The translations under genes were made by a program, and so were the position numbers. The notes under the pieces are model-generated. The model did no database searches. It was not told the DNA's origin and saw only the letters and a program-made list of their open reading frames with translations. Shown piece after piece: positions 7,518 to 16,319 of a stretch of DNA of 31,416 nucleotides; position 1 is the first letter of the stretch; the number at the start of each line of letters is the position of its first letter. Source of the stretch: Pseudomonadota bacterium (lineage in GTDB: Bacteria; Pseudomonadota; Gammaproteobacteria; Steroidobacterales; Woeseiaceae); NCBI GenBank assembly GCA_038533315.1, contig JBCAZB010000001.1, positions 1 through 31,416 on the forward strand, written 5' to 3'.

Positions 7518-8402
7518 TCAGTCGTGACGGCGCACGATCAGTCTCGCCATGACGCGCAGCGGATCGGCGGCATTACCGAAATGATCCAGATGTTGCAGGC
7601 CTTCCGCGTAGAGCTTGTCGCAATCCGCTTTGGCCTGTTCAACGCCGAAGATGGCCGGCCAGGTCGCCTTGTCGTGCAGGATGTCTGAGCCTGCGGGCTT
7701 GCCGATCGTATCGGTGTCACCTTCGATATCGAGAATGTCGTCGCGGATCTGGAACGCGAGCCCGAGACATTCGGAGAAATCGATAATGCGTTGTTGATCG
7801 TCGGCGGCGAGCGATGGCGCCACTGCGGTGGCCATATCGCAGGCAGCGGTAATCAGCGCCCCGGTTTTCTGTGCAAACATCTTGCGTAACAAATCACCGC
7901 TGATCGTCTTACCTTCCGATTCGATATCGATCGCCTGACCGCCCGTCATACCCAGCGAGCCGCAAGCCCGCGCAAGTGACTGCACCATGCGTAACTGCGC
8001 GGGCGCATGATCGACGCTGGCTTTCGCGAGCACTTCAAATGCCAGCGGTTGCAGTGCATCGGCAGCGAGGATGGCGGTCGCTTCGTCAAATCGTCGATGC
8101 ACGGTGGGTTTGCCGCGTCGGAGATCATCGTCATCCATGGCGGGCAGATCGTCGTGTACCAGTGAAAACGCGTGGATCAGCTCCACGGCGATCGCGGGGG
8201 CATCGAGCAGCGCCTTCTCGACCCCAAGCAACTCGCCGGTCGCGTAGACCAATAGCGGCCTGATGCGCTTGCCGCCATTCAATGTGGCGTAGCGCATCGC
8301 TTCGTGCAGTTGGGTCGGTATTTCTGAGGCCGGTGGTAGCGTATCGGCCAGCACCGAGTCGACGCGAGCGATATAATCCGGGATAGAAAATTCAAAAGAC
8401 AT
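7518..8402 (-). CDS. ispA: Geranyltranstransferase / farnesyl diphosphate synthase
   Basis: GGKRIRP, FARM with insertion HAFSLVHDDLPAMDDDDLRRGKPT (aromatic Phe five residues before the first Asp, FPP-synthase type), GGQAID, KTG, SARM FQIRDDILD. ATG 8402 preferred over TTG 8411. Confidence 0.93.
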   Translation of the reverse strand: MSFEFSIPDYIARVDSVLADTLPPASEIPTQLHEAMRYATLNGGKRIRPLLVYATGELLGVEKALLDAPAIAVELIHAFSLVHDDLPAMDDDDLRRGKPTVHRRFDEATAILAADALQPLAFEVLAKASVDHAPAQLRMVQSLARACGSLGMTGGQAIDIESEGKTISGDLLRKMFAQKTGALITAACDMATAVAPSLAADDQQRIIDFSECLGLAFQIRDDILDIEGDTDTIGKPAGSDILHDKATWPAIFGVEQAKADCDKLYAEGLQHLDHFGNAADPLRVMARLIVRRHD

Positions 8403-8459
8403 ACAGGGCAAAATCCAGTCGATTCGCTAGGCGGCTATTTTGCGCGTTGGACACCTCAT

Positions 8460-9455
8460 TTGACAGCCTCTGAACCGACAAAATCCGCCGTAACCGTAAT
8501 CGCGCATCCGAATATTGCGCTCGTTAAGTATTGGGGTAAGGCCGATGCCCAGCGTAACTTGCCGGATGTCGGGTCGATTTCGATCACGCTCGATGCATTG
8601 GCGACACGCACGACGGTCGCGCTTGCAGAATCCGATGACCGCTTTTCGTTGAACGAGTCGCCGGAGCCCGCTATGGCCGCGCGCTTGTTTGGTTTCCTCG
8701 ATCACTTCTACGGGGCGGACCGGCCGAAACTCGCTGTCACTTCGTTCAATGATTTTCCCACGGCAGCCGGGCTGGCGAGTTCCGCATCCGGGTTCGCAGC
8801 ATTGGTGGTCGCCGTGGATCGCCTGCTGCAGGCCGGTCACAGCACGTCGACGTTGGCGCAACAAGCCGGGCGCGGCTCGGGCTCTGCCGCCCGCTCGTTG
8901 TTTGGCGGCTTTGTGCGGCTCGATAAGCCGACGGGTAGCGACGATGACATCACCGTCACAGAGCTGTGCGCGGCGGCGGACTTCCCGCTTGAGGTGGTCG
9001 TGGCCATCACCAGCGAACAACGCAAGACGATCGGCTCCACGGAAGGGATGCGCGCGAGCAAGCTGACCTCGCCGTTTTATCCCGCCTGGTTAGAAACCCA
9101 CGACGCCGATATGACGGCGGCGGCCACTGCGATTGCACAGCGTGATTTCGAGGTGCTTGCGGATATCAGTGAGCATAGTTGCCTGAAAATGCACGCCGTG
9201 ATGCAAGCGACGCGTCCGGCGATGTTGTACTGGAATTCAGCCACTGTCGCTTGTATGCACGCCGTCCAGGCGCTGCGTGCGTCGGGAGTCGGCGTGTTTT
9301 TCACGATCGATGCCGGGCCGCAGGTTAAGGCGGTATGCCTGCCGGAGCACGCATCAACCGTGGCGGATACGCTTGTGTCGATCGATGGCGTGCATCGGAT
9401 CCTGCGTTCCGGTCTCGGCGACGGTGCGCGCGTTCTGAGTCAGGAGTCCGACTAG
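8460..9455 (+). CDS. mvaD: Diphosphomevalonate decarboxylase
   Basis: AHPNIALVKYWGK, SISITL, N-FPTAAGLASSASGFAAL, GSGSAARS, MHA, FFTIDAGPQVK. TTG start is uncertain by a few codons. Confidence 0.93.
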   Translation: MTASEPTKSAVTVIAHPNIALVKYWGKADAQRNLPDVGSISITLDALATRTTVALAESDDRFSLNESPEPAMAARLFGFLDHFYGADRPKLAVTSFNDFPTAAGLASSASGFAALVVAVDRLLQAGHSTSTLAQQAGRGSGSAARSLFGGFVRLDKPTGSDDDITVTELCAAADFPLEVVVAITSEQRKTIGSTEGMRASKLTSPFYPAWLETHDADMTAAATAIAQRDFEVLADISEHSCLKMHAVMQATRPAMLYWNSATVACMHAVQALRASGVGVFFTIDAGPQVKAVCLPEHASTVADTLVSIDGVHRILRSGLGDGARVLSQESD

Positions 9456-10480
9456 TGCCGCAGCCATTGCGTGTCACTGTGCCCGGCAAGATTATGCTGG
9501 CCGGTGAGTATGCCGTGCTTCGCGGTGGTGTCGCCATGCTCGCCAGCACCACCCAGGTGTGTGAGGCGACGTTACGTCGGCACAGTGAGCCCGACCACAG
9601 TATTCGTACCGTCGGCTTTCGAGAAGGTACCTATCGATTCTCCATTGATGCACGTGCTCGAGTGACCGATGTCGGTGGTGACAGCGCGGCCGCGCTGCGT
9701 TTACCGGTTGCAGTGATCGAGGAGTTCCCGCCGCGTAAACCGGTCAGTTTGAGTCTCGATACCCGTGCGTTCTACACCGCTGATCGCAAACTCGGGCTGG
9801 GTTCCAGCGCCGCGGCGACCGTGGCGCTAGCTGAAGTGTTGGCTCGTTTCAATGGTGATCCAGACGTGCGGCGCAGTGCGCTCAACGCCCACCGCGCCTT
9901 TCAGGGTGGGCATGGCAGCGGCGCGGATATTTACGCGGTACAACAGGGCGGTGTGGTGTCTTTCCAGCGCAGCGAAGGGCGGAACAAACTGACCACCTTG
10001 CCATGGCCTGAGTCGTTGCATGCCACAGTGTTCACGTTGTCGACGGCTGCGCCCACCGTCTCGCATATCCAGCGGTTTGACGCCTGGCTCGAGAAAGACG
10101 CGACGGCCGAACGACTGCTTGGCGAGATGATCGCCGCGACGCACGCCTTGGGGAAGGTGTGGCGCAGCGGCGATGCAGCAGCGATAATTGAGAGTATGCG
10201 TGAATTGACGCAACACATGCTGGCCATCGATGCAGCGGGCGAGCTCGGCTATACAGCGGGTGGTCATGCGGCGCTGCTTCAGACCGAGACACCGGCTGGT
10301 GTTTTGTATAAACCGGTCGGCGCTGGTGGTGGCGACCTTGGGCTTGCGCTTTCGGATGATCCGACGGCACTGGCGGCCTTCGCAAGTCAAGTCACCGGCA
10401 AGAACTGCACTGTGCTCGACACAGCACTGGGCGTCACGCGCCCGACGCGCAGCTGGCAAGCGGATGAGGGGACATCATGA
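9455..10480 (+). CDS. mvaK2: Phosphomevalonate kinase (GHMP family)
   Basis: Start reassigned to GTG 9455 (overlaps the mvaD TAG). PGKIMLAGEYAVL, KLGLGSSAA, GSGADI, KPVGAGGGDLG, plus position within the MVA operon. Confidence 0.82.
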   Translation: MPQPLRVTVPGKIMLAGEYAVLRGGVAMLASTTQVCEATLRRHSEPDHSIRTVGFREGTYRFSIDARARVTDVGGDSAAALRLPVAVIEEFPPRKPVSLSLDTRAFYTADRKLGLGSSAAATVALAEVLARFNGDPDVRRSALNAHRAFQGGHGSGADIYAVQQGGVVSFQRSEGRNKLTTLPWPESLHATVFTLSTAAPTVSHIQRFDAWLEKDATAERLLGEMIAATHALGKVWRSGDAAAIIESMRELTQHMLAIDAAGELGYTAGGHAALLQTETPAGVLYKPVGAGGGDLGLALSDDPTALAAFASQVTGKNCTVLDTALGVTRPTRSWQADEGTS

Positions 10481-13293
10481 CGTCGGTATTTTCCGGGTTC
10501 TATCGTTTGGCGATCAGCGACCGACTGGCCGCGTTGCTCGAGGCCGGCGTATTGTCTACCAACGATTATGCGGCGCTGAGCAGTGGCGATATCACGCTGG
10601 ATCGCGGTACGGCAGAACATTTGATCGAGAACGTGATTGGCGTCGCCGGCCTGCCGTTTGCCGTCGCGCTCAACTTCCGGATCAACAAGCAAGAGCGGCT
10701 GATTCCGATGGTCGTCGAAGAGCCTTCGATCGTTGCCGCTTTGTCGTCGGCCGCGAAGTTGGCGCGGTCGGTCGGCGGGTTCGAGGTCGACAGTGACGAT
10801 GGCCTGATGATCGGCCAGATTCAGTTACTGGACGGCGAAGACCCGGATGCATCACTAGCGGCGCTGGCCGATGCCGAACAACGTATCGTTGACGCAGCCA
10901 ATGCGGTGCATCCAAACCTGATCAAACGCGGTGGCGGTGTGCGTGGCATGCAGCAATTCAGCTATCAACGTGCAGGTGGCGGTCACATGATCGTCGTCCA
11001 TTTGCTGATCGACACCTGTGACGCGATGGGCGCCAACCTGATTAATACGATCTGCGAGCAGGTCGCGCCGATGGTGGCATCGATTGCCGGTGCGCGTCCG
11101 CACCTGCGCATCTTGTCCAATCTGGCGGACAAAGCACTGGTGCGAGCCCGTATGCGTCTGCCGCTGTCAGCATTGCATGCGGACGAAGAAAAGGCGCGTT
11201 CGATTCGTGATGGCATCATCGCCGCCAACGAGTTCGCGGAACTCGATGTGCATCGCGCGACGACGCACAACAAAGGCATCATGAACGGTATCGATGCGTT
11301 GGTTGTCGCGACCGGCAACGACTGGCGTGCGGTGGAAGCCAGCGCCCACGCATGGGCAGCACGCAGCGGTCGTTACCGCTCACTAACACGCTGGACGGCG
11401 AATGAGCAGGGCGATCTATGTGGCGAGCTGTTATTGCCGATCAAACTCGGCATCGTCGGTGGCTCTGTACGTGTCAATCCTGTGGCGAAGTTAAGTTTGC
11501 GACTCGCAGGCATCGAGCGTTCACGTGAGCTTGACGAGATCGCCTGTGTCGTTGGTCTTGCGCAGAACTTTTCTGCGCTCAAAGCACTGGCGACGGACGG
11601 CATCCAGCGCGGCCATATGGCATTGCACGCACGCAGCGTCGCGATTCAGGCGGGCGCTCAGGATTCTGAGGTCGAGCCGGTCGTCGCAGCGATGACCGCG
11701 GAGGGCGTCGTTAAGACCTGGCGTGCGCGAGAACTCATCGAAGAGCTGCGTCTTAAGTCACCCGCTTATCCGCCACGTGAACTGATCGGCGAAGTCAGCA
11801 GTGCGGCGAAACTAATTCTGGCCGGCGAGCATGCGGTGGTTTACGGTCGCCGCGCACTGGGTTTGCCGATTCCGCGTGCGTTACGCGCCGAGGTGTTCAG
11901 CAGCAAGACACCGTTGACTATCCGCGTCGACGACTGGCAACTGCAGTATGACGCCAGCGATGATGCCGATCATCGCAGCCCGCTCGGCATGCTGGTCGAT
12001 ACGATCCTGTCGCTTGCCGCGATCGAAATGCCGAACGGTCATATCGATGTGTCATGCCAGATCCCGTTTGCGGCGGGCCTCGGCGGCTCGGCGGCCCTCG
12101 CCGTGGTGCTAATTCGTGCGATGGCGAAACTCACCGGCCTCAAACTGTCACCCACCGAGATCAACGAGATGGCGTTCGCCTGCGAGAAGCTCGCGCACGG
12201 CACACCATCGGGTGTCGACAACACGCTGGCGACTTTCGCTGCACCATTGCTGTTCTCGCCGCGTGCGACGGCGAAGACTCAAGACATCGCGATCGCCGCG
12301 CCACTGCAGCTCGTCATCGCCTTCAGTGGCATCAAAGGTGTGACGTCAGATTTGGTGGCGCGTGTGGGTGAACGTCGGGAGCGACGACCCGCTGCATTCG
12401 ATGCGATGTTTGACCAGATCGACGCCGAAGTGTCGGCGTGCCTCGCTGCGTTGCAGTCGGCGGATTGGCGATCACTTGGCGACAGCCTGAACCTGTGCCA
12501 CGGTCTGTTGAATGCCATCGGCGTTAGTCATCCAGAACTCGAGAAGATGGTGCACATCGCGCGCGATGCGGGTGCACTCGGTGCCAAGCTGACCGGCGCT
12601 GGCGGCGGCGGCTCGGTGATTGCGCTGTGTGAGGGCAATGCGGAGCAAGTCGCGACGGCCCTGCGTCAAGCACGCTACGAAGCACGCGTTATTGATGTGG
12701 CCGCTGCTGAGCCAGCGGACCCGATCGTTTCATTCGATGCCGAGGAACTGGTGCTCGTCAACGAGCAGGATGAGATCACCGGTTATCTACCGAAGGCCGA
12801 TTGCCATAACGGTGATGGTATTTTGCACCGCGCGTTTTCGTTGTTTGTGTTCAATGATGCCGGCGAGGTATTGTTGCAGCAACGCGCCGCGGACAAACGC
12901 TTGTGGGGCGGCTATTGGTCCAACAGCTGTTGCTCTCATCCGCGCCGCGGTGAGTCCATGGACGAGGCGACTCATCGACGCCTGCATCAGGAACTTGGTT
13001 GCCACGCCGAGCTCGAGTTTGTCTACAAGTTCAGCTACCAGGCGAGCTTTGGCAGTGCTGGCAGCGAACACGAGATGTGCTCGGTGTATGTAGGTCGTCT
13101 GAAAGACGAAGTGCGGCCTAATCGAACCGAGGTCGACGACTGGCAGTTTCTGGCGCCCGAGGCGGTCGACCGATGGCTCGCCGAAGACCCGGACACGCTA
13201 ACGCCGTGGTTCAAGATGGAGTGGGCGAAGTTGCGCCACGAGTATGCCGACAGCATCGAATCGCTGACGGCGCCGGTCGAGTCACCCGAGTAG
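10477..13293 (+). CDS. Trifunctional fusion: class II HMG-CoA reductase (~aa 1-425) + mevalonate kinase (~aa 440-740) + type 1 isopentenyl-diphosphate isomerase (~aa 756-930)
   Basis: HMGR: ENVIG, EEPSIVAA, DAMGAN, THNKGIMNG, GIQRGHMALHAR. MVK: AAKLILAGEHAVVYG, GLGGSAA, EKLAHGTPSGVDN, KLTGAGGGG. IDI1: LHRAFSLFVFN, LLQQRA, WSNSCCSHP, RRLHQELG, EHEMC, TPWF. One uninterrupted 938-codon frame. Confidence 0.93.
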   Translation: MTSVFSGFYRLAISDRLAALLEAGVLSTNDYAALSSGDITLDRGTAEHLIENVIGVAGLPFAVALNFRINKQERLIPMVVEEPSIVAALSSAAKLARSVGGFEVDSDDGLMIGQIQLLDGEDPDASLAALADAEQRIVDAANAVHPNLIKRGGGVRGMQQFSYQRAGGGHMIVVHLLIDTCDAMGANLINTICEQVAPMVASIAGARPHLRILSNLADKALVRARMRLPLSALHADEEKARSIRDGIIAANEFAELDVHRATTHNKGIMNGIDALVVATGNDWRAVEASAHAWAARSGRYRSLTRWTANEQGDLCGELLLPIKLGIVGGSVRVNPVAKLSLRLAGIERSRELDEIACVVGLAQNFSALKALATDGIQRGHMALHARSVAIQAGAQDSEVEPVVAAMTAEGVVKTWRARELIEELRLKSPAYPPRELIGEVSSAAKLILAGEHAVVYGRRALGLPIPRALRAEVFSSKTPLTIRVDDWQLQYDASDDADHRSPLGMLVDTILSLAAIEMPNGHIDVSCQIPFAAGLGGSAALAVVLIRAMAKLTGLKLSPTEINEMAFACEKLAHGTPSGVDNTLATFAAPLLFSPRATAKTQDIAIAAPLQLVIAFSGIKGVTSDLVARVGERRERRPAAFDAMFDQIDAEVSACLAALQSADWRSLGDSLNLCHGLLNAIGVSHPELEKMVHIARDAGALGAKLTGAGGGGSVIALCEGNAEQVATALRQARYEARVIDVAAAEPADPIVSFDAEELVLVNEQDEITGYLPKADCHNGDGILHRAFSLFVFNDAGEVLLQQRAADKRLWGGYWSNSCCSHPRRGESMDEATHRRLHQELGCHAELEFVYKFSYQASFGSAGSEHEMCSVYVGRLKDEVRPNRTEVDDWQFLAPEAVDRWLAEDPDTLTPWFKMEWAKLRHEYADSIESLTAPVESPE

Positions 13294-13425: not shown

Positions 13426-14895
13426 TCAAGCGCGGTACTTGTAGTACTCGATGCCGATATCCTGGAATTTGTGATCGGTCTTGCGGCCCACGTCGGCGAT
13501 AAAGAACTCGCCACCATTCGACGCCGGCAAACCCAGTGCACGTCGACCGTCGTGTAGTGCTTCGTACTGTTCGCGACTGATGTCGATGGGTTGCTCCAAC
13601 GCTTGGGCGAACCGTATCTTGCGCGTGGCTTCACGCCAGCCTGGTGCGACGTACATCGGGATGACTTCCGCCGCATCGCCACTGCCGTACCCGAGGGTCA
13701 GGATTTCTTGTCCGGTCAGGTCGATATCGTCACGCAGCGCTTCTTCAAAGCCGGACGCCATCCACGCCGGCAGTGCCGCCGTGTAAAGGTTGCCGAGATC
13801 GCGCATGCCTTCGCTGCCGAGTGCCAGTTTGCTTTCAACGGTGTCTACGAAATCGGGCATGCGACGGAACAGGCGCACCAGCGCCATTGTTAGCGGCATT
13901 GCATCGTCGTTGAGATGTTCTGCGCTCGCGAGTGACGCGATCGTGTGGTCTGCGCGCAGTTCAGCGACTAACTCGTCGCCATCCATTTCAGCTAGTGCTG
14001 CGTATTCACGCAAGCGTGCTTCGCCGTCATCGCTGTTGGCGAGCGCCCAGAACCACGCAACCGAGAAACCGTTTTCCGGCATACGTCGGTAAGGACGGTG
14101 CATGAATAAGTGTTTGACGGATTCCAAGTGTGCCGCTGGGTCGATACCTCGGCGACGATACATATCGGCGAGTGCGTGCAGCGTCTCGTCGATATAGCAG
14201 GTGGTGGAATACTTGCCATTGAACACCGGGAAATCCTGCACTTGATGCGATTCACTGCGGTCCTGACCGCAGAAGCGCAGCATCGGCTTACGGAAATCCA
14301 TGATGCGGTAGTCAGACGCGCTGCCACTGTTAATGAGATCGACCGTAGCGAGCTGCGGGTCTTCCTCAAGCAGCATGGCGATCGCGCCAGCGCCCTGCGT
14401 GGGTTCACCACTGCTGCCGCGTTGGTATTCTGCGATGTCAGCACAGACAACAATCGCCTTGCTGCCGCGGCCGTCAAAAGCGAGCGCGCGAATCGCGCTT
14501 TTCATCGCGTAGACGCCGCCGAGACACGCATGTTTGAACTCTGGGACTTCGCAAGCACGCGATAGTGCTGGCTTGCCGCGTTGCTCCAATGCGGCGTCGA
14601 CCATGCCTTTGACGATCACCGCGCCCGCGGAATTGTCGAGGCTCGATTCGGTACCCAGACCCAGGAAGCGAACGCTATCGGGATCGATGTCGTATTGGTC
14701 GATGAGTCGCAGGACTGCGGTCGCAGCCATCGTGTAAACGCTGTGTTCGTGACCACGCATTCGGAAGCTGTGGCCGACGACGGCGCTGATTTTAGACCAT
14801 TGCTGGTCTGTCCAATCGCACCATTCGTCGAGTTTTACACGATAAGGTGGCACATAGGCCGCGAGCCCACTGATTCCGATGTTTGTCATGGTCAT
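13426..14895 (-). CDS. mvaS: Hydroxymethylglutaryl-CoA synthase (long form)
   Basis: Start ATG 14895 or 14889 (MTMTNIGISGLAAYVP). GTESS (catalytic Glu), EFKHACLGG (catalytic Cys), GEPTQGAGA, HRPY (catalytic His), LGNLYT, GYGSG. Confidence 0.88.
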   Translation of the reverse strand: MTMTNIGISGLAAYVPPYRVKLDEWCDWTDQQWSKISAVVGHSFRMRGHEHSVYTMAATAVLRLIDQYDIDPDSVRFLGLGTESSLDNSAGAVIVKGMVDAALEQRGKPALSRACEVPEFKHACLGGVYAMKSAIRALAFDGRGSKAIVVCADIAEYQRGSSGEPTQGAGAIAMLLEEDPQLATVDLINSGSASDYRIMDFRKPMLRFCGQDRSESHQVQDFPVFNGKYSTTCYIDETLHALADMYRRRGIDPAAHLESVKHLFMHRPYRRMPENGFSVAWFWALANSDDGEARLREYAALAEMDGDELVAELRADHTIASLASAEHLNDDAMPLTMALVRLFRRMPDFVDTVESKLALGSEGMRDLGNLYTAALPAWMASGFEEALRDDIDLTGQEILTLGYGSGDAAEVIPMYVAPGWREATRKIRFAQALEQPIDISREQYEALHDGRRALGLPASNGGEFFIADVGRKTDHKFQDIGIEYYKYRA

Positions 14896-14971
14896 TCTGC
14901 GCTGACTGGTAGTGGCGCTGCCCAACGCGGCTTTCGGGCAGGAGGCCGACACAAATTTTGTCCCCGACGGC

Positions 14972-15000
14972 ATTGTAGGCCTGTGGCACGGTGCCTACAA
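14972..15000 (-). promoter_or_regulatory. Putative sigma70 promoter of mvaS, overlapped by an 8-bp inverted repeat
   Basis: Minus strand TTGTAG (15000-14995)-N17-TACAAT (14977-14972). Plus strand TTGTAGGC-N12-GCCTACAA (14973-15000). Confidence 0.55.
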
Positions 15001-15011
15001 GCCTCGTGGCA

Positions 15012-16319
15012 TCAATAAGTGGCGAAGATGTACAACACCATTGTGACAATAATGATAACGACAGCGGTGAGATAGCCTGCAAATAGCAGAACGTACTTGA
15101 ACAGCGTGATCACACGCCCCTGCTGGTAGACATTTCGCAACGCCTTGTACAAATAGATCGGAATATAAAGCCCAATCAATAAGTTAGGGATCAAATAGAG
15201 CCAGCTGGGCGCGGTCGTCAGTGACAGCAGGCTGTTGTAGCTGAACAGGATCGAGGCAGCGAAAAACAGGAAGCTGTGGTAGTGCACCAGCATCAGCAGA
15301 TGCTCGACGTAGTAACGACGTGACAGTGGGTACAAAAATTTCAGCAGCATCGCGAGCAACGGCAACAATGCCAATGCGCCAACCGCGAGGTTCTGCGTAA
15401 AGCGCTCGGTGAAACGCTGCCCGTTATCGTCTTTGATGTGGTCACAAATGGCTTCCGCACGTCGCTCTGTGATGTAGCGGTTAAGCCACGGCATACCGAT
15501 CTCGTCGAAATCGGCCTCACAAGGAATTTCTTCCTCGGCTTCGGCCAGCGCGTCCGCGTCTGTCGGCAGCTCGTTGTCATTGTCGAGTGTTGCGTCGTCT
15601 TCCGGCTCAGGGTCTCCGTCGCCGACGCGCAGATTGACACCATCGGCACCGATCGACAGCCCGGTGATACGTACCTCGTCATCGACCGACTCATCGATCG
15701 CGCTGCTCTCGGTGAAGGCGGTCGTTAGCAGGAAGAAGATGAAACTCATCACGAGATACATGCGGAACGGAGGCATGTAACGAGCGCGCCGCCCGCGCAG
15801 GTATTCGGCGGTCAGGTAGCCTGGGCGAATGGCGAGCGGGATCATCGTTCGCCACAGGCGCGAATCCAGCTCAAACATGTCCCCGAAGGCGTCCCTGATC
15901 AGTTCGAACAGGCTGATCAGGCGGGTGTTGCTGCGCTGACCACAATTCCAGCAATACTGACCGGAGATCTCAACGCCGCAATTCAGGCAACTCGTTGCCG
16001 ATGTTTCGCTGCGGGTCTCCATCGCACGGACCTGGCGACTGCTGCGTAAGTCTTCGCCAAATAGGGCGACTCCCGGTGCGCGCATCCGCTCCGCATGCTC
16101 TTCAAGGTATCGATCCAGCGCCTGTTGATCGGATAAGACGTATTGCACCGTATGTACAACGCGATCGTCTTGTGTCGGAGAAGGATCAAACCGGTGCGCT
16201 TCGATGAAGCCCGGCAATGCCAGCATGTCATCGACATGCGCAGGCAACCAGTCCCCGAGCGCTGCGCTGTCGCGCTCGGGGATACTCAGTTTAACTTCAT
16301 AAACAACGCGTCTACTCAG
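15012..16319 (-). CDS. DUF4286-like N-terminal domain fused to zinc-ribbon/DUF3667-like membrane protein; probable CTG start
   Basis: Frame is open upstream of the listed TTG to CTG 16319 (SRRVVYEVKL...DWLPAHVDDMLALPGF...YVL, DUF4286-like). Then CLNCG-x5-YCWNCGQ, LDSRLWRT, RPGYLTAEYLRGRRARYMPPFRMYL (DUF3667-like) and several TMs. Confidence 0.75.
   Translation of the reverse strand: MSRRVVYEVKLSIPERDSAALGDWLPAHVDDMLALPGFIEAHRFDPSPTQDDRVVHTVQYVLSDQQALDRYLEEHAERMRAPGVALFGEDLRSSRQVRAMETRSETSATSCLNCGVEISGQYCWNCGQRSNTRLISLFELIRDAFGDMFELDSRLWRTMIPLAIRPGYLTAEYLRGRRARYMPPFRMYLVMSFIFFLLTTAFTESSAIDESVDDEVRITGLSIGADGVNLRVGDGDPEPEDDATLDNDNELPTDADALAEAEEEIPCEADFDEIGMPWLNRYITERRAEAICDHIKDDNGQRFTERFTQNLAVGALALLPLLAMLLKFLYPLSRRYYVEHLLMLVHYHSFLFFAASILFSYNSLLSLTTAPSWLYLIPNLLIGLYIPIYLYKALRNVYQQGRVITLFKYVLLFAGYLTAVVIIIVTMVLYIFATY

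What the first reader, a model, noticed from the sequence alone, without database searches (positions are those of the whole stretch)
10477..13293. Three-enzyme fusion HMG-CoA reductase - mevalonate kinase - IPP isomerase: candidate MVA metabolon scaffold
One 938-aa frame carries three intact catalytic domains joined by short linkers (LKSPAYPPRELIGEV; VAAAEPADPIVSF) (seen). It joins two consecutive steps (HMGR, MVK) to the last step (IDI) and skips PMK and MVD, which are the two coupled genes just upstream. The well-known bacterial MVA fusion is enterococcal MvaE (thiolase-HMGR); I do not recall a characterised HMGR-MVK-IDI protein. Class II HMGRs are intertwined oligomers and many MVKs are feedback-inhibited by prenyl diphosphates (established). 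The HMGR core could therefore multimerise MVK and IDI, dock PMK/MVD, and place the DMAPP source next to its feedback target (inference). It could also be useful for terpenoid engineering.
Basis: partly seen in the sequence, partly recalled or inferred. Interest (0 to 1): 0.92.

Follow-up and report, generated by a model that had tools for sequence, protein, structure and literature searches.

The report
Natural HMGR–MVK–IDI triple-enzyme fusion
One real gene in this marine Woeseiaceae bacterium encodes three mevalonate-pathway enzymes as a single 938-residue protein; it arose when the stop codon between an already common two-enzyme fusion gene and the next gene was lost, and it is genuine, rare and unstudied, with no evidence yet that it is a special scaffold.

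Summary
Window 10477-13293 (+) is one stop-free 938-aa ORF. It carries a class II HMG-CoA reductase, a mevalonate kinase and a type 1 IPP isomerase. All three score above the curated HMM cut-offs and all catalytic residues are present. It is not an assembly artefact. Contigs from other runs of the same study cross both junctions without differences. No stop interrupts the frame in any of the 17 other species-level genomes of the genus that have the gene.

The other 15 genera of the family carry a fused HMGR-MVK gene, a stop, and a separate idi 10-90 nt downstream, often in the same frame. The triple protein is therefore a genus-level stop-loss extension of a widespread two-enzyme fusion. This scan has met that two-enzyme fusion before on other genomes.

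The genus lacks Dxr, IspG, IspH and a type 2 IDI. The fusion is therefore its only recognisable route to IPP/DMAPP, and it evolves under strong purifying selection.

A second, unrelated triple-fusion lineage exists, as do a likely third one and an MVK-IDI fusion. Among 1.84 billion representative proteins only two clusters cover all three domains. No paper on the fusion was found.

The "metabolon scaffold" idea is untested: the model's pTM is 0.52, so it does not fix a domain arrangement. This is a new variant of a known kind, of moderate interest.

The parts
10477..13293 (+). Whole fusion gene (938 codons plus stop TAA/TAG/TGA at 13291-13293)
   Evidence: unique match in own genome
10477..11751 (+). 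Class II HMG-CoA reductase domain (aa 1-425), including the C-terminal flap region; catalytic E82, K266, D282, H380
   Evidence: TIGR00532 356 bits. Aligns over residues 9-427 with PDB 6dio at E 5e-112, and with 1qax. Catalytic residues are invariant in 56 of 56 aligned fusions.
11752..11796 (+). Linker 1 (aa 426-440, LKSPAYPPRELIGEV). It is conserved in the genus as SPAxxPR..GEV and is about 14 residues shorter than in other HMGR-MVK fusions.
   Evidence: pLDDT dips to 64-80 here
11797..12696 (+). Mevalonate kinase (GHMP) domain (aa 441-740); K445, E451, S538 (GLGGSAA), D581 (TPSGVDNT), GAGGGG 707-712
   Evidence: TIGR00549 239.5 bits; PDB mevalonate kinases 2hfs and 4hac at E 1e-32 to 1e-34; residues invariant
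12697..12735 (+). Linker 2 (aa 741-753, VAAAEPADPIVSF). It occupies the place of the mvk stop codon, the short spacer and the idi start found in sister genera.
   Evidence: Same length to within one codon as the stop-containing stretch in relatives such as L015. Junction bridged by contigs of runs X2 and X3.
12736..13290 (+). Type 1 IPP:DMAPP isomerase (Nudix) domain (aa 754-938); H777, H784, C819, H821, E839, Y854, E864, E866, W911
   Evidence: NF002995 172.6 bits and TIGR02150 150.1 bits; PDB 3hyq and 1i9a at E 1e-27 to 1e-29; all nine residues invariant in 39 of 39 triple fusions
8460..9455 (+). Diphosphomevalonate decarboxylase (MVD), first gene of the operon
   Evidence: TIGR01240 257 bits, cut-off 171
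9455..10480 (+). Divergent GHMP kinase, inferred phosphomevalonate kinase. The true start is GTG 9455 (AGGAG upstream), not the ATG 9335 of the mechanical ORF list.
   Evidence: Below cut-off matches to PMK and MVK models; position conserved in all related clusters; start region
7518..8411 (-). Farnesyl diphosphate synthase, divergent from the operon
   Evidence: NF045485 328 bits; synteny conserved
13426..14973 (-). HMG-CoA synthase (long form), convergent with the fusion gene
   Evidence: Pfam HMG_CoA_synt_N/C; NCBIfam matches below cut-off; synteny conserved

Best explanation
This is a genuine, expressed-as-written trifunctional gene of the classical mevalonate pathway. The N-terminal class II HMG-CoA reductase makes mevalonate. 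The central GHMP kinase phosphorylates it. The C-terminal type 1 isomerase interconverts the pathway's end product IPP with DMAPP. The upstream, translationally coupled PMK and MVD supply the two steps in between. The gene arose in the common ancestor of one Woeseiaceae genus, when the stop codon between a pre-existing hmgr-mvk fusion gene and the closely following idi gene was lost. The old MVK tail, spacer and IDI N-terminus became a linker of about 8-13 residues. Because the genus has no MEP pathway and no other IDI, HMGR or MVK, the polypeptide is indispensable and all three domains are kept active. The most likely benefit, if there is one, is fixed 1:1:1 co-production of the three enzymes. 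They would be co-localised on the obligate HMGR dimer, and mevalonate could pass directly from HMGR to MVK. No dedicated scaffold or regulatory mechanism needs to be invoked. Shown here: the ORF, the domains, the residues, the distribution, the origin by stop loss, pathway dependence and purifying selection. Inferred: the enzymatic activities, the full-length product and any kinetic benefit.
For: The ORF and the three domains score above curated cut-offs. Catalytic residues are invariant across 39 triple and 56 total fusions. None of the 17 other genomes of the genus that have the gene shows a stop in the frame. Fifteen matches are full length, one stops about 10 residues short at a contig end, and one is cut by its contig end after linker 2 (G116). 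All 15 other genera of the family have HMGR-MVK, then a stop, then idi; in 11 of 15 loci inspected idi is in the same frame with one to three stops. The linker length equals the ancestral tail+stop+spacer to within one codon. The IDI domain and the HMGR-MVK part of the genus both sit next to unfused Woeseiaceae sequences in trees. Dxr, IspG, IspH and type 2 IDI were not found in four genomes of the genus that are at least 98% complete, while the controls were positive. The only type 1 IDI lies in the fusion. Several complete genomes have a single match to the whole query. dN/dS is 0.015-0.07 in every domain and linker against the 97%-identical orthologue, with dS about 0.9-1.2. Contigs from other runs of the same study cross both junctions. 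There is no Shine-Dalgarno plus start combination at either domain start. Operon coupling is by overlapping stop and start codons. Each domain is modelled confidently (mean pLDDT 86.7).
Against: There are no protein-level data, so the full-length product, all activities and the cofactor preference are inferred from sequence. One genome of the genus (G108, 90% complete) gave no match. The dS values are near saturation, so dN/dS is approximate. The direction of change (fusion rather than fission) rests on parsimony with unfused outgroups, not on a rooted species tree. A real selective advantage is not demonstrated; fixation could be neutral.
Confidence: 0.8

Rival explanations
1. Metabolon scaffold. 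The oligomeric HMGR core multimerises MVK and IDI, docks PMK and MVD, and places the DMAPP source beside a feedback-inhibited MVK, so the fusion is an organising hub with regulatory consequences.
For: The linkers are short and conserved within the genus, which forces the domains close together. All partners are encoded in one translationally coupled operon. The fusion recurred independently, which hints at a selectable benefit. By established knowledge, class II HMGR is an obligate dimer and mevalonate kinase is a dimer, so cross-linked assemblies are geometrically possible.
Against: The single-chain model has pTM 0.52, so it shows no confident inter-domain packing. IDI is not adjacent in the pathway to MVK, so direct channelling between them is impossible. 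Fifteen sister genera manage with idi as a separate gene. Simple stop loss between same-frame neighbours is a cheap, frequent mutation that needs no adaptive story. No sequence marker tells whether this MVK is feedback-inhibited.
Confidence: 0.12
2. The gene is translated or processed into separate enzymes through internal initiation or proteolysis at the linkers, so the fusion exists only at the DNA or mRNA level.
For: The ancestral idi had its own start at this place. A GTG at aa 741 and a GTG at aa 759 with GAGG upstream exist.
Against: The GTG at aa 741 has no Shine-Dalgarno sequence. The GTG at aa 759 lies inside the conserved IDI N-terminal strand. The ancestral Met is gone in all species of the genus. 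The linkers evolve under purifying selection.
Confidence: 0.06
3. Assembly or sequencing artefact: a lost stop, a frameshift or a chimeric join in a fragmented MAG.
For: The genome is a 438-contig, 71%-complete MAG. A Logan contig of run X1 ends at 12699 in Illumina adapter sequence.
Against: The same uninterrupted frame occurs in 17 other species-level genomes, including contigs up to 1.57 Mb, and in about 18 protein clusters from NCBI, ENA, JGI and Logan. Contigs of two other runs bridge junction 2 and a 1977-nt contig bridges junction 1, all with 0 differences.
Confidence: 0.01

Closest known systems
HMGR-MVK two-domain fusion proteins (about 740-780 aa; annotated only as 'hydroxymethylglutaryl-CoA reductase, degradative') of Woeseiaceae, Wenzhouxiangella, Rhodanobacteraceae, Calditrichaceae, Acidobacteriota, cultured Cryobacterium and others
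   Same: Same first two domains in the same order, 45-51% identical. Same operon layout: FPPS(-) | mvd pmk fusion(+), with idi immediately downstream. This is the direct ancestor state.
   Different: They end with a stop after MVK and idi is a separate gene. Their linker 1 is about 14 residues longer. They too appear uncharacterised (earlier scan notes).
Enterococcus faecalis MvaE (acetoacetyl-CoA thiolase fused to class II HMGR)
   Same: A natural bacterial fusion involving a class II HMGR of the mevalonate pathway. The HMGR domains are homologous (PDB 7m1z/7m3h, E 1e-87). MvaE-type architectures of about 810 aa with HMGR at the C-terminus appear.
   Different: In MvaE the partner is thiolase and sits N-terminal, leaving the HMGR flap free. 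Here HMGR is N-terminal and its flap helix runs straight into MVK. There is no thiolase domain here. MvaE has two activities, this protein three.
IspDF bifunctional enzyme of the MEP pathway
   Same: A natural, common fusion of non-consecutive steps of an isoprenoid-precursor pathway, with the intervening enzyme encoded separately (PMC13001223, as quoted). It is the best conceptual analogue for joining MVK to IDI.
   Different: Different pathway and unrelated folds. It has been characterised biochemically and structurally; this one has not.
Diatom IDI-SQS fusion (PtIDISQS of Phaeodactylum tricornutum)
   Same: A type 1 IDI naturally fused to another isoprenoid enzyme that is not its pathway neighbour (PMC12168105).
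   Different: It is eukaryotic, IDI is N-terminal, and the partner is squalene synthase.
Second triple-fusion lineage ('clade 2', 935-953 aa, e.g. P0033 and P0039; some members named Desulfobacterales MAGs)
   Same: Identical domain order and conserved catalytic residues. The same mvd-pmk-fusion operon lies next to a polyprenyl synthase.
   Different: Only 41-47% identical, and both linkers are longer and unrelated in sequence. It branches apart from the window's genus in every tree, and a single clade of all triples is rejected on the concatenated data (p-AU 0.008). It is probably an independent fusion.

Membership tests
Class II HMG-CoA reductase (TIGR00532 / PF00368) | Full-length match above the curated cut-off | tested here: met
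   356.4 bits against cut-off 259.95, residues 2-385. The class I models score only 20-30 bits.
Class II HMG-CoA reductase (TIGR00532 / PF00368) | Catalytic Glu, Lys, Asp and His (P. mevalonii E83/K267/D283/H381; numbering recalled) and the C-terminal flap | tested here: met
   E82, K266, D282 and H380 are invariant in 56 fusions. The alignment to PDB 6dio and 1qax runs through residue 427.
Class II HMG-CoA reductase (TIGR00532 / PF00368) | Reductase activity and NAD(P)H preference | not testable with these tools
   Needs an enzyme assay. The label 'degradative' is only the model's name; the genomic context (sole isoprenoid route) implies a biosynthetic role.
Mevalonate kinase (TIGR00549, GHMP superfamily) | Match above cut-off, the three GHMP motifs, and the catalytic Lys and Asp | tested here: met
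   239.5 bits against cut-off 163. K445, E451, GLGGSAA with S538, D581 and GAGGGG are invariant.
Type 1 IPP:DMAPP isomerase (TIGR02150 / NF002995, Nudix fold) | Match above cut-off, plus the catalytic Cys and Glu pair, the metal-binding His and Glu residues, and Tyr and Trp (E. coli C67, E116, H25, H32, H69, E114, E87, Y104, W161; numbering recalled) | tested here: met
   172.6 and 150.1 bits against cut-offs 127 and 105.8. All nine positions are conserved in 39 of 39 triple fusions.
MvaE-type thiolase-HMGR fusion | N-terminal thiolase domain | tested here: not met
   No thiolase family among the Pfam or NCBIfam hits; HMGR starts at residue 2.
Classical (eukaryote-type) bacterial mevalonate pathway cluster | HMGS, HMGR, MVK, PMK, diphosphomevalonate decarboxylase and IDI all present | tested here: met
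   MVD is above its equivalog cut-off. HMGS is recognised by Pfam. PMK is assigned only by position and weak GHMP matches. Thiolase was not looked for.
Metabolon / scaffold complex | Physical association of the fusion with PMK and MVD, or defined inter-domain packing | not testable with these tools
   Only a single-chain model was possible. Its pTM of 0.52 indicates an undefined domain arrangement.

The most novel reading that the evidence does not exclude
The short-linkered HMGR-MVK-IDI polypeptide assembles into a defined higher-order particle through the HMGR dimer or hexamer and the MVK dimer. That particle would recruit PMK and MVD, channel mevalonate, and couple DMAPP/IPP levels to MVK or HMGR activity. 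It would be a natural, self-organising mevalonate 'isoprenosome' that evolved repeatedly and could be transplanted for terpenoid engineering.
Probability: 0.1. Interest if true: 0.75.

Novelty: new variant of a known kind. Interest (0 to 1): 0.45.

Why it matters
This is a natural single polypeptide with three mevalonate-pathway activities, in a lineage that depends on it completely. It is therefore an evolved and presumably well-balanced module. Metabolic engineers build such fusions by hand, and nature here offers about 40 sequence-diverse versions, together with matched unfused controls in sister genera. It also gives a clean, datable example of how operon neighbours become multidomain enzymes by stop-codon loss. 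Finally, it exposes a systematic annotation gap: these proteins are labelled only 'HMG-CoA reductase, degradative', which hides MVK and IDI and can make pathway reconstructions of Woeseiaceae and other marine sediment bacteria look incomplete.

Tried and rejected
(1) Assembly artefact: rejected by orthologues and by contigs of other runs. (2) Internal start sites for separate MVK or IDI products: no convincing SD plus start was found. (3) A single origin of all triple fusions was not rejected by the HMGR-MVK part alone (p-AU 0.16) or the IDI part alone (0.19). It was rejected on the concatenated 943 columns (0.008). That test used LG+G4 without a mixture model and a group named after seeing earlier trees, so I treat independent origin as likely, not proven. 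(4) A scan of GTDB representative genomes with a clade 2 protein returned no clade 2 genome, only unfused or two-domain relatives, so the taxonomy of clade 2 stays uncertain. (5) Seven literature searches for any description of HMGR-MVK or HMGR-MVK-IDI fusions found none. Hoshino and Gaucher 2018 only mention trimming fused partners from alignments. The library holds open-access papers only. (6) dN/dS for more distant pairs failed in my script and would be saturated anyway. (8) No RNA run holding the locus was listed, so transcription was not examined.
Full report
OBSERVATION. The window holds one uninterrupted ORF at 10477-13293 on the + strand, 938 codons long. Pfam finds HMG-CoA_red (residues 14-385), GHMP_kinases_N and _C (519-586, 656-732) and NUDIX (783-912). 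NCBIfam equivalog models place each part precisely and above the curated cut-offs. Class II HMG-CoA reductase TIGR00532 scores 356 bits against a cut-off of 260. Mevalonate kinase TIGR00549 scores 239.5 against 163. Type 1 IPP isomerase NF002995 and TIGR02150 score 172.6 and 150.1 against 127 and 106. Each part aligns end to end with solved structures: class II HMGRs 6dio and 1qax (E about 1e-110), mevalonate kinases 2hfs and 4hac (E about 1e-33), and E. coli/Salmonella IDI 1i9a and 3hyq (E about 1e-28).

CATALYTIC RESIDUES. I mapped the catalytic residues through those alignments; the reference numbering is from memory. For HMGR they are E82, K266, D282 and H380. For MVK they are K445, E451, S538, D581 and the GAGGGG loop. 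For IDI they are H777, H784, C819, H821, E839, Y854, E864, E866 and W911. All are present, and all are invariant in 56 aligned fusions (39 for the IDI part).

IS IT REAL? The genome is a fragmented MAG (438 contigs, 71% complete) and the window is a whole contig, so an artefact had to be excluded. Four marine-metagenome runs of one study hold the sequence. A 1977-nt Logan contig of run X1 covers 10744-12699 with no difference, which spans junction 1. Contigs of runs X2 (12623-12818) and X3 (12675-12892) bridge junction 2, also with no difference. No indels or joints were reported. The X1 contig break at 12699 is followed by Illumina adapter sequence.

The stronger evidence comes from relatives. 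In a survey of 151 genomes of the family, 17 of the 18 other species-level genomes of the window's own genus match the query with no stop in the frame. Fifteen matches are full length (residues 1 to about 935). One is cut about 10 residues before the end by its contig end. One is cut by its contig end just after linker 2 (G116). The contigs reach 1.57 Mb. The protein database holds about 18 clusters of 935-939 aa at 67-96% identity from NCBI, ENA, JGI and Logan. NCBI names one member 'Woeseiaceae bacterium' and labels the proteins only 'hydroxymethylglutaryl-CoA reductase, degradative'.

WHERE IT CAME FROM. In all 15 other genera of the family the match either stops at about residue 736 or continues to about residue 930 with one to three stop codons inside. 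I fetched 16 such loci and found the same pattern in every one. A fused HMGR-MVK ORF of 731-770 aa ends in a stop, and a separate idi with its own Met starts 10-90 nt downstream. In 11 of 15 loci idi is in the same reading frame; in the rest it is in another frame. In the window's genus the stop and the Met are gone. The stretch from the last MVK strand to the first conserved IDI motif (IVSF/S..EEL) has the same length, to within one codon, as tail+stop+spacer+N-terminus in relatives such as L015.

The whole cluster is syntenic across the family: FPPS(-) | mvd pmk fusion(+) | HMGS(-) | DUF3667 gene. Trees of the HMGR-MVK part and of the IDI part both place the genus as one well-supported clade next to unfused Woeseiaceae sequences (L028, L062). 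Unfused outgroups from Rhodanobacteraceae, Calditrichaceae, Acidobacteriota, Myxococcota, Salinisphaera and others show the same HMGR-MVK | idi arrangement. The parsimonious reading is a single stop-loss fusion in the ancestor of this genus, on top of a much older and very widespread HMGR-MVK fusion. That older fusion includes cultured Cryobacterium, and earlier agents of this scan noted it on other genomes.

HOW RARE IS THE TRIPLE FORM? An exhaustive HMMER search of 1.84 billion 50%-identity representatives found only two clusters that cover all three domains: the window's own (P0013) and 'clade 2' (P0033, 45% identical). About 15 clusters are HMGR-MVK. Clade 2 comprises 21 clusters at 90% identity, 935-953 aa long. 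Its members sit in the same mvd-pmk-fusion operon, in one case next to carotenoid genes. Both of its linkers are longer and unrelated in sequence to the window's.

The two triple clades are never sisters. Monophyly is not rejected with either part alone (p-AU 0.16 and 0.19). It is rejected on the concatenated 943 columns (p-AU 0.008, delta lnL 68). That test used a simple model and a group chosen after seeing trees, so independent origin is likely rather than proven. A partial protein, P0044, is a third triple fusion with yet another linker; its sister is a two-domain protein with full support. P0146 is a stand-alone MVK-IDI fusion of 504 aa. Loss of the mvk stop in front of idi has therefore probably happened several times.

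IS IT NEEDED AND MAINTAINED? In the window's genome and in four genomes of the genus that are at least 98% complete, Dxr, IspG and IspH were not found. The same searches hit 9 of 14 control genomes. No type 2 IDI reaches its cut-off, and the only type 1 IDI is the C-terminal domain of the fusion. Several complete genomes have a single match to the whole 938-aa query. The mevalonate pathway is thus the only recognisable source of IPP/DMAPP, and an MVA-only organism needs an isomerase. This argues that all three domains work. Against the 97%-identical orthologue, dS is about 0.9-1.2 and dN/dS is 0.015-0.07 in each domain and each linker.

The operon is tightly coupled. The PMK start GTG 9455 shares a base with the MVD stop. 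The fusion ATG 10477 overlaps the PMK stop as ATGA, with GAGGGG 5 nt upstream. No Shine-Dalgarno plus start pair exists at the MVK or IDI domain starts.

MECHANISM. What is shown is that one gene, and most probably one polypeptide, carries steps 3, 4 and 7 of the classical pathway. The upstream genes carry steps 5 and 6, and the convergent gene carries HMGS. What is inferred follows from established facts: class II HMGR is active only as a dimer, and GHMP mevalonate kinases are dimers. The fusion must therefore bring at least two copies of each activity together and fixes a 1:1:1 ratio. The HMGR-to-MVK hand-over of mevalonate is the only consecutive pair.

The AlphaFold2 model built on 56 homologues has a mean pLDDT of 86.7 but a pTM of only 0.52. 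pLDDT dips at both linkers and in the HMGR flap. The domains are well defined, but their mutual arrangement is not predicted. One feature deserves a structural look. Linker 1 in this genus is the shortest of all the HMGR-MVK fusions aligned here, about 11 residues directly after the mobile flap helix that carries the catalytic His.

It is compatible with the data, but nothing measured here supports it. Sister genera do without the fusion, and the mutation that creates it is trivial. I give that reading about 0.1.

COMPARISON WITH THE KNOWN. The closest relatives are the uncharacterised two-domain HMGR-MVK proteins. The closest characterised fusion with a class II HMGR is enterococcal MvaE, but there the partner is an N-terminal thiolase, which is absent here. 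The best functional analogies are two. IspDF of the MEP pathway is a common fusion of non-consecutive steps (PMC13001223). The diatom IDI-squalene synthase fusion joins IDI to a non-neighbouring enzyme (PMC12168105). No paper describing HMGR-MVK or HMGR-MVK-IDI was found in seven full-text searches of an open-access library.

VERDICT. It is a new variant (three enzymes) of a known kind (natural fusions of isoprenoid-precursor enzymes). Its evolutionary origin is clear and ordinary, and it has an untested but practically interesting biochemistry.

Noticed in passing
L005 (G124:C2:1412110-1417917) and L027 (G124:C2:1516300-1525200): One genome of the genus carries two complete copies of the MVA cluster (mvd, pmk, triple fusion, HMGS) about 100 kb apart on the same 1.57-Mb contig. 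The two fusion proteins are only 83% identical and group with different species in the IDI tree. This suggests an old duplication or acquisition from a congener.
   Followed up: partly
P0146 (504 aa): A stand-alone MVK-IDI two-domain fusion with its own start (MASAAGKIILLGEH...). It shows that idi has also been fused to mvk in a lineage where HMGR is separate.
   Followed up: partly
P0044 (758 aa, N-terminally truncated at a contig end): A third HMGR-MVK-IDI lineage with a different linker 2. Its sister, with 100% SH-aLRT support, is a two-domain protein (P0118).
   Followed up: partly
P0172 (1453 aa) and P0167 (932 aa): Other class II HMGR fusions exist. One is HMGR + polyprenyl synthase + squalene/phytoene synthase. 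The other is HMGR + a squalene-hopene-cyclase-like domain. HMGR appears to be a frequent N-terminal fusion partner in isoprenoid clusters.
   Followed up: no
window 9455-10480 (+): The presumed phosphomevalonate kinase is very divergent. It scores below the cut-off for every PMK and MVK model (best 52-59 bits) and is only 32-49% identical even within the family, while its neighbours are 50-85% identical. Its real start is GTG 9455, not the ATG 9335 of the mechanical ORF list.
   Followed up: partly
window 13426-14973 (-): The HMG-CoA synthase is a long form (515 aa) that scores far below the bacterial equivalog cut-off (171 against 360 bits) and matches in two stretches. The long form is conserved across the family (64-80% identity).
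   Followed up: no
window 15012-16247 (-): A DUF4286/DUF3667 gene sits next to HMGS in the window and in several family members (L014, L027, L028). This conserved neighbour of the MVA cluster has no known function.
   Followed up: no
L029 1-5825: In clade 2 the MVA operon lies beside crtI-, crtB- and lycopene-cyclase-like genes and a BCD (carotenoid oxygenase family) gene. The cluster there may feed carotenoid or retinal synthesis.
   Followed up: no
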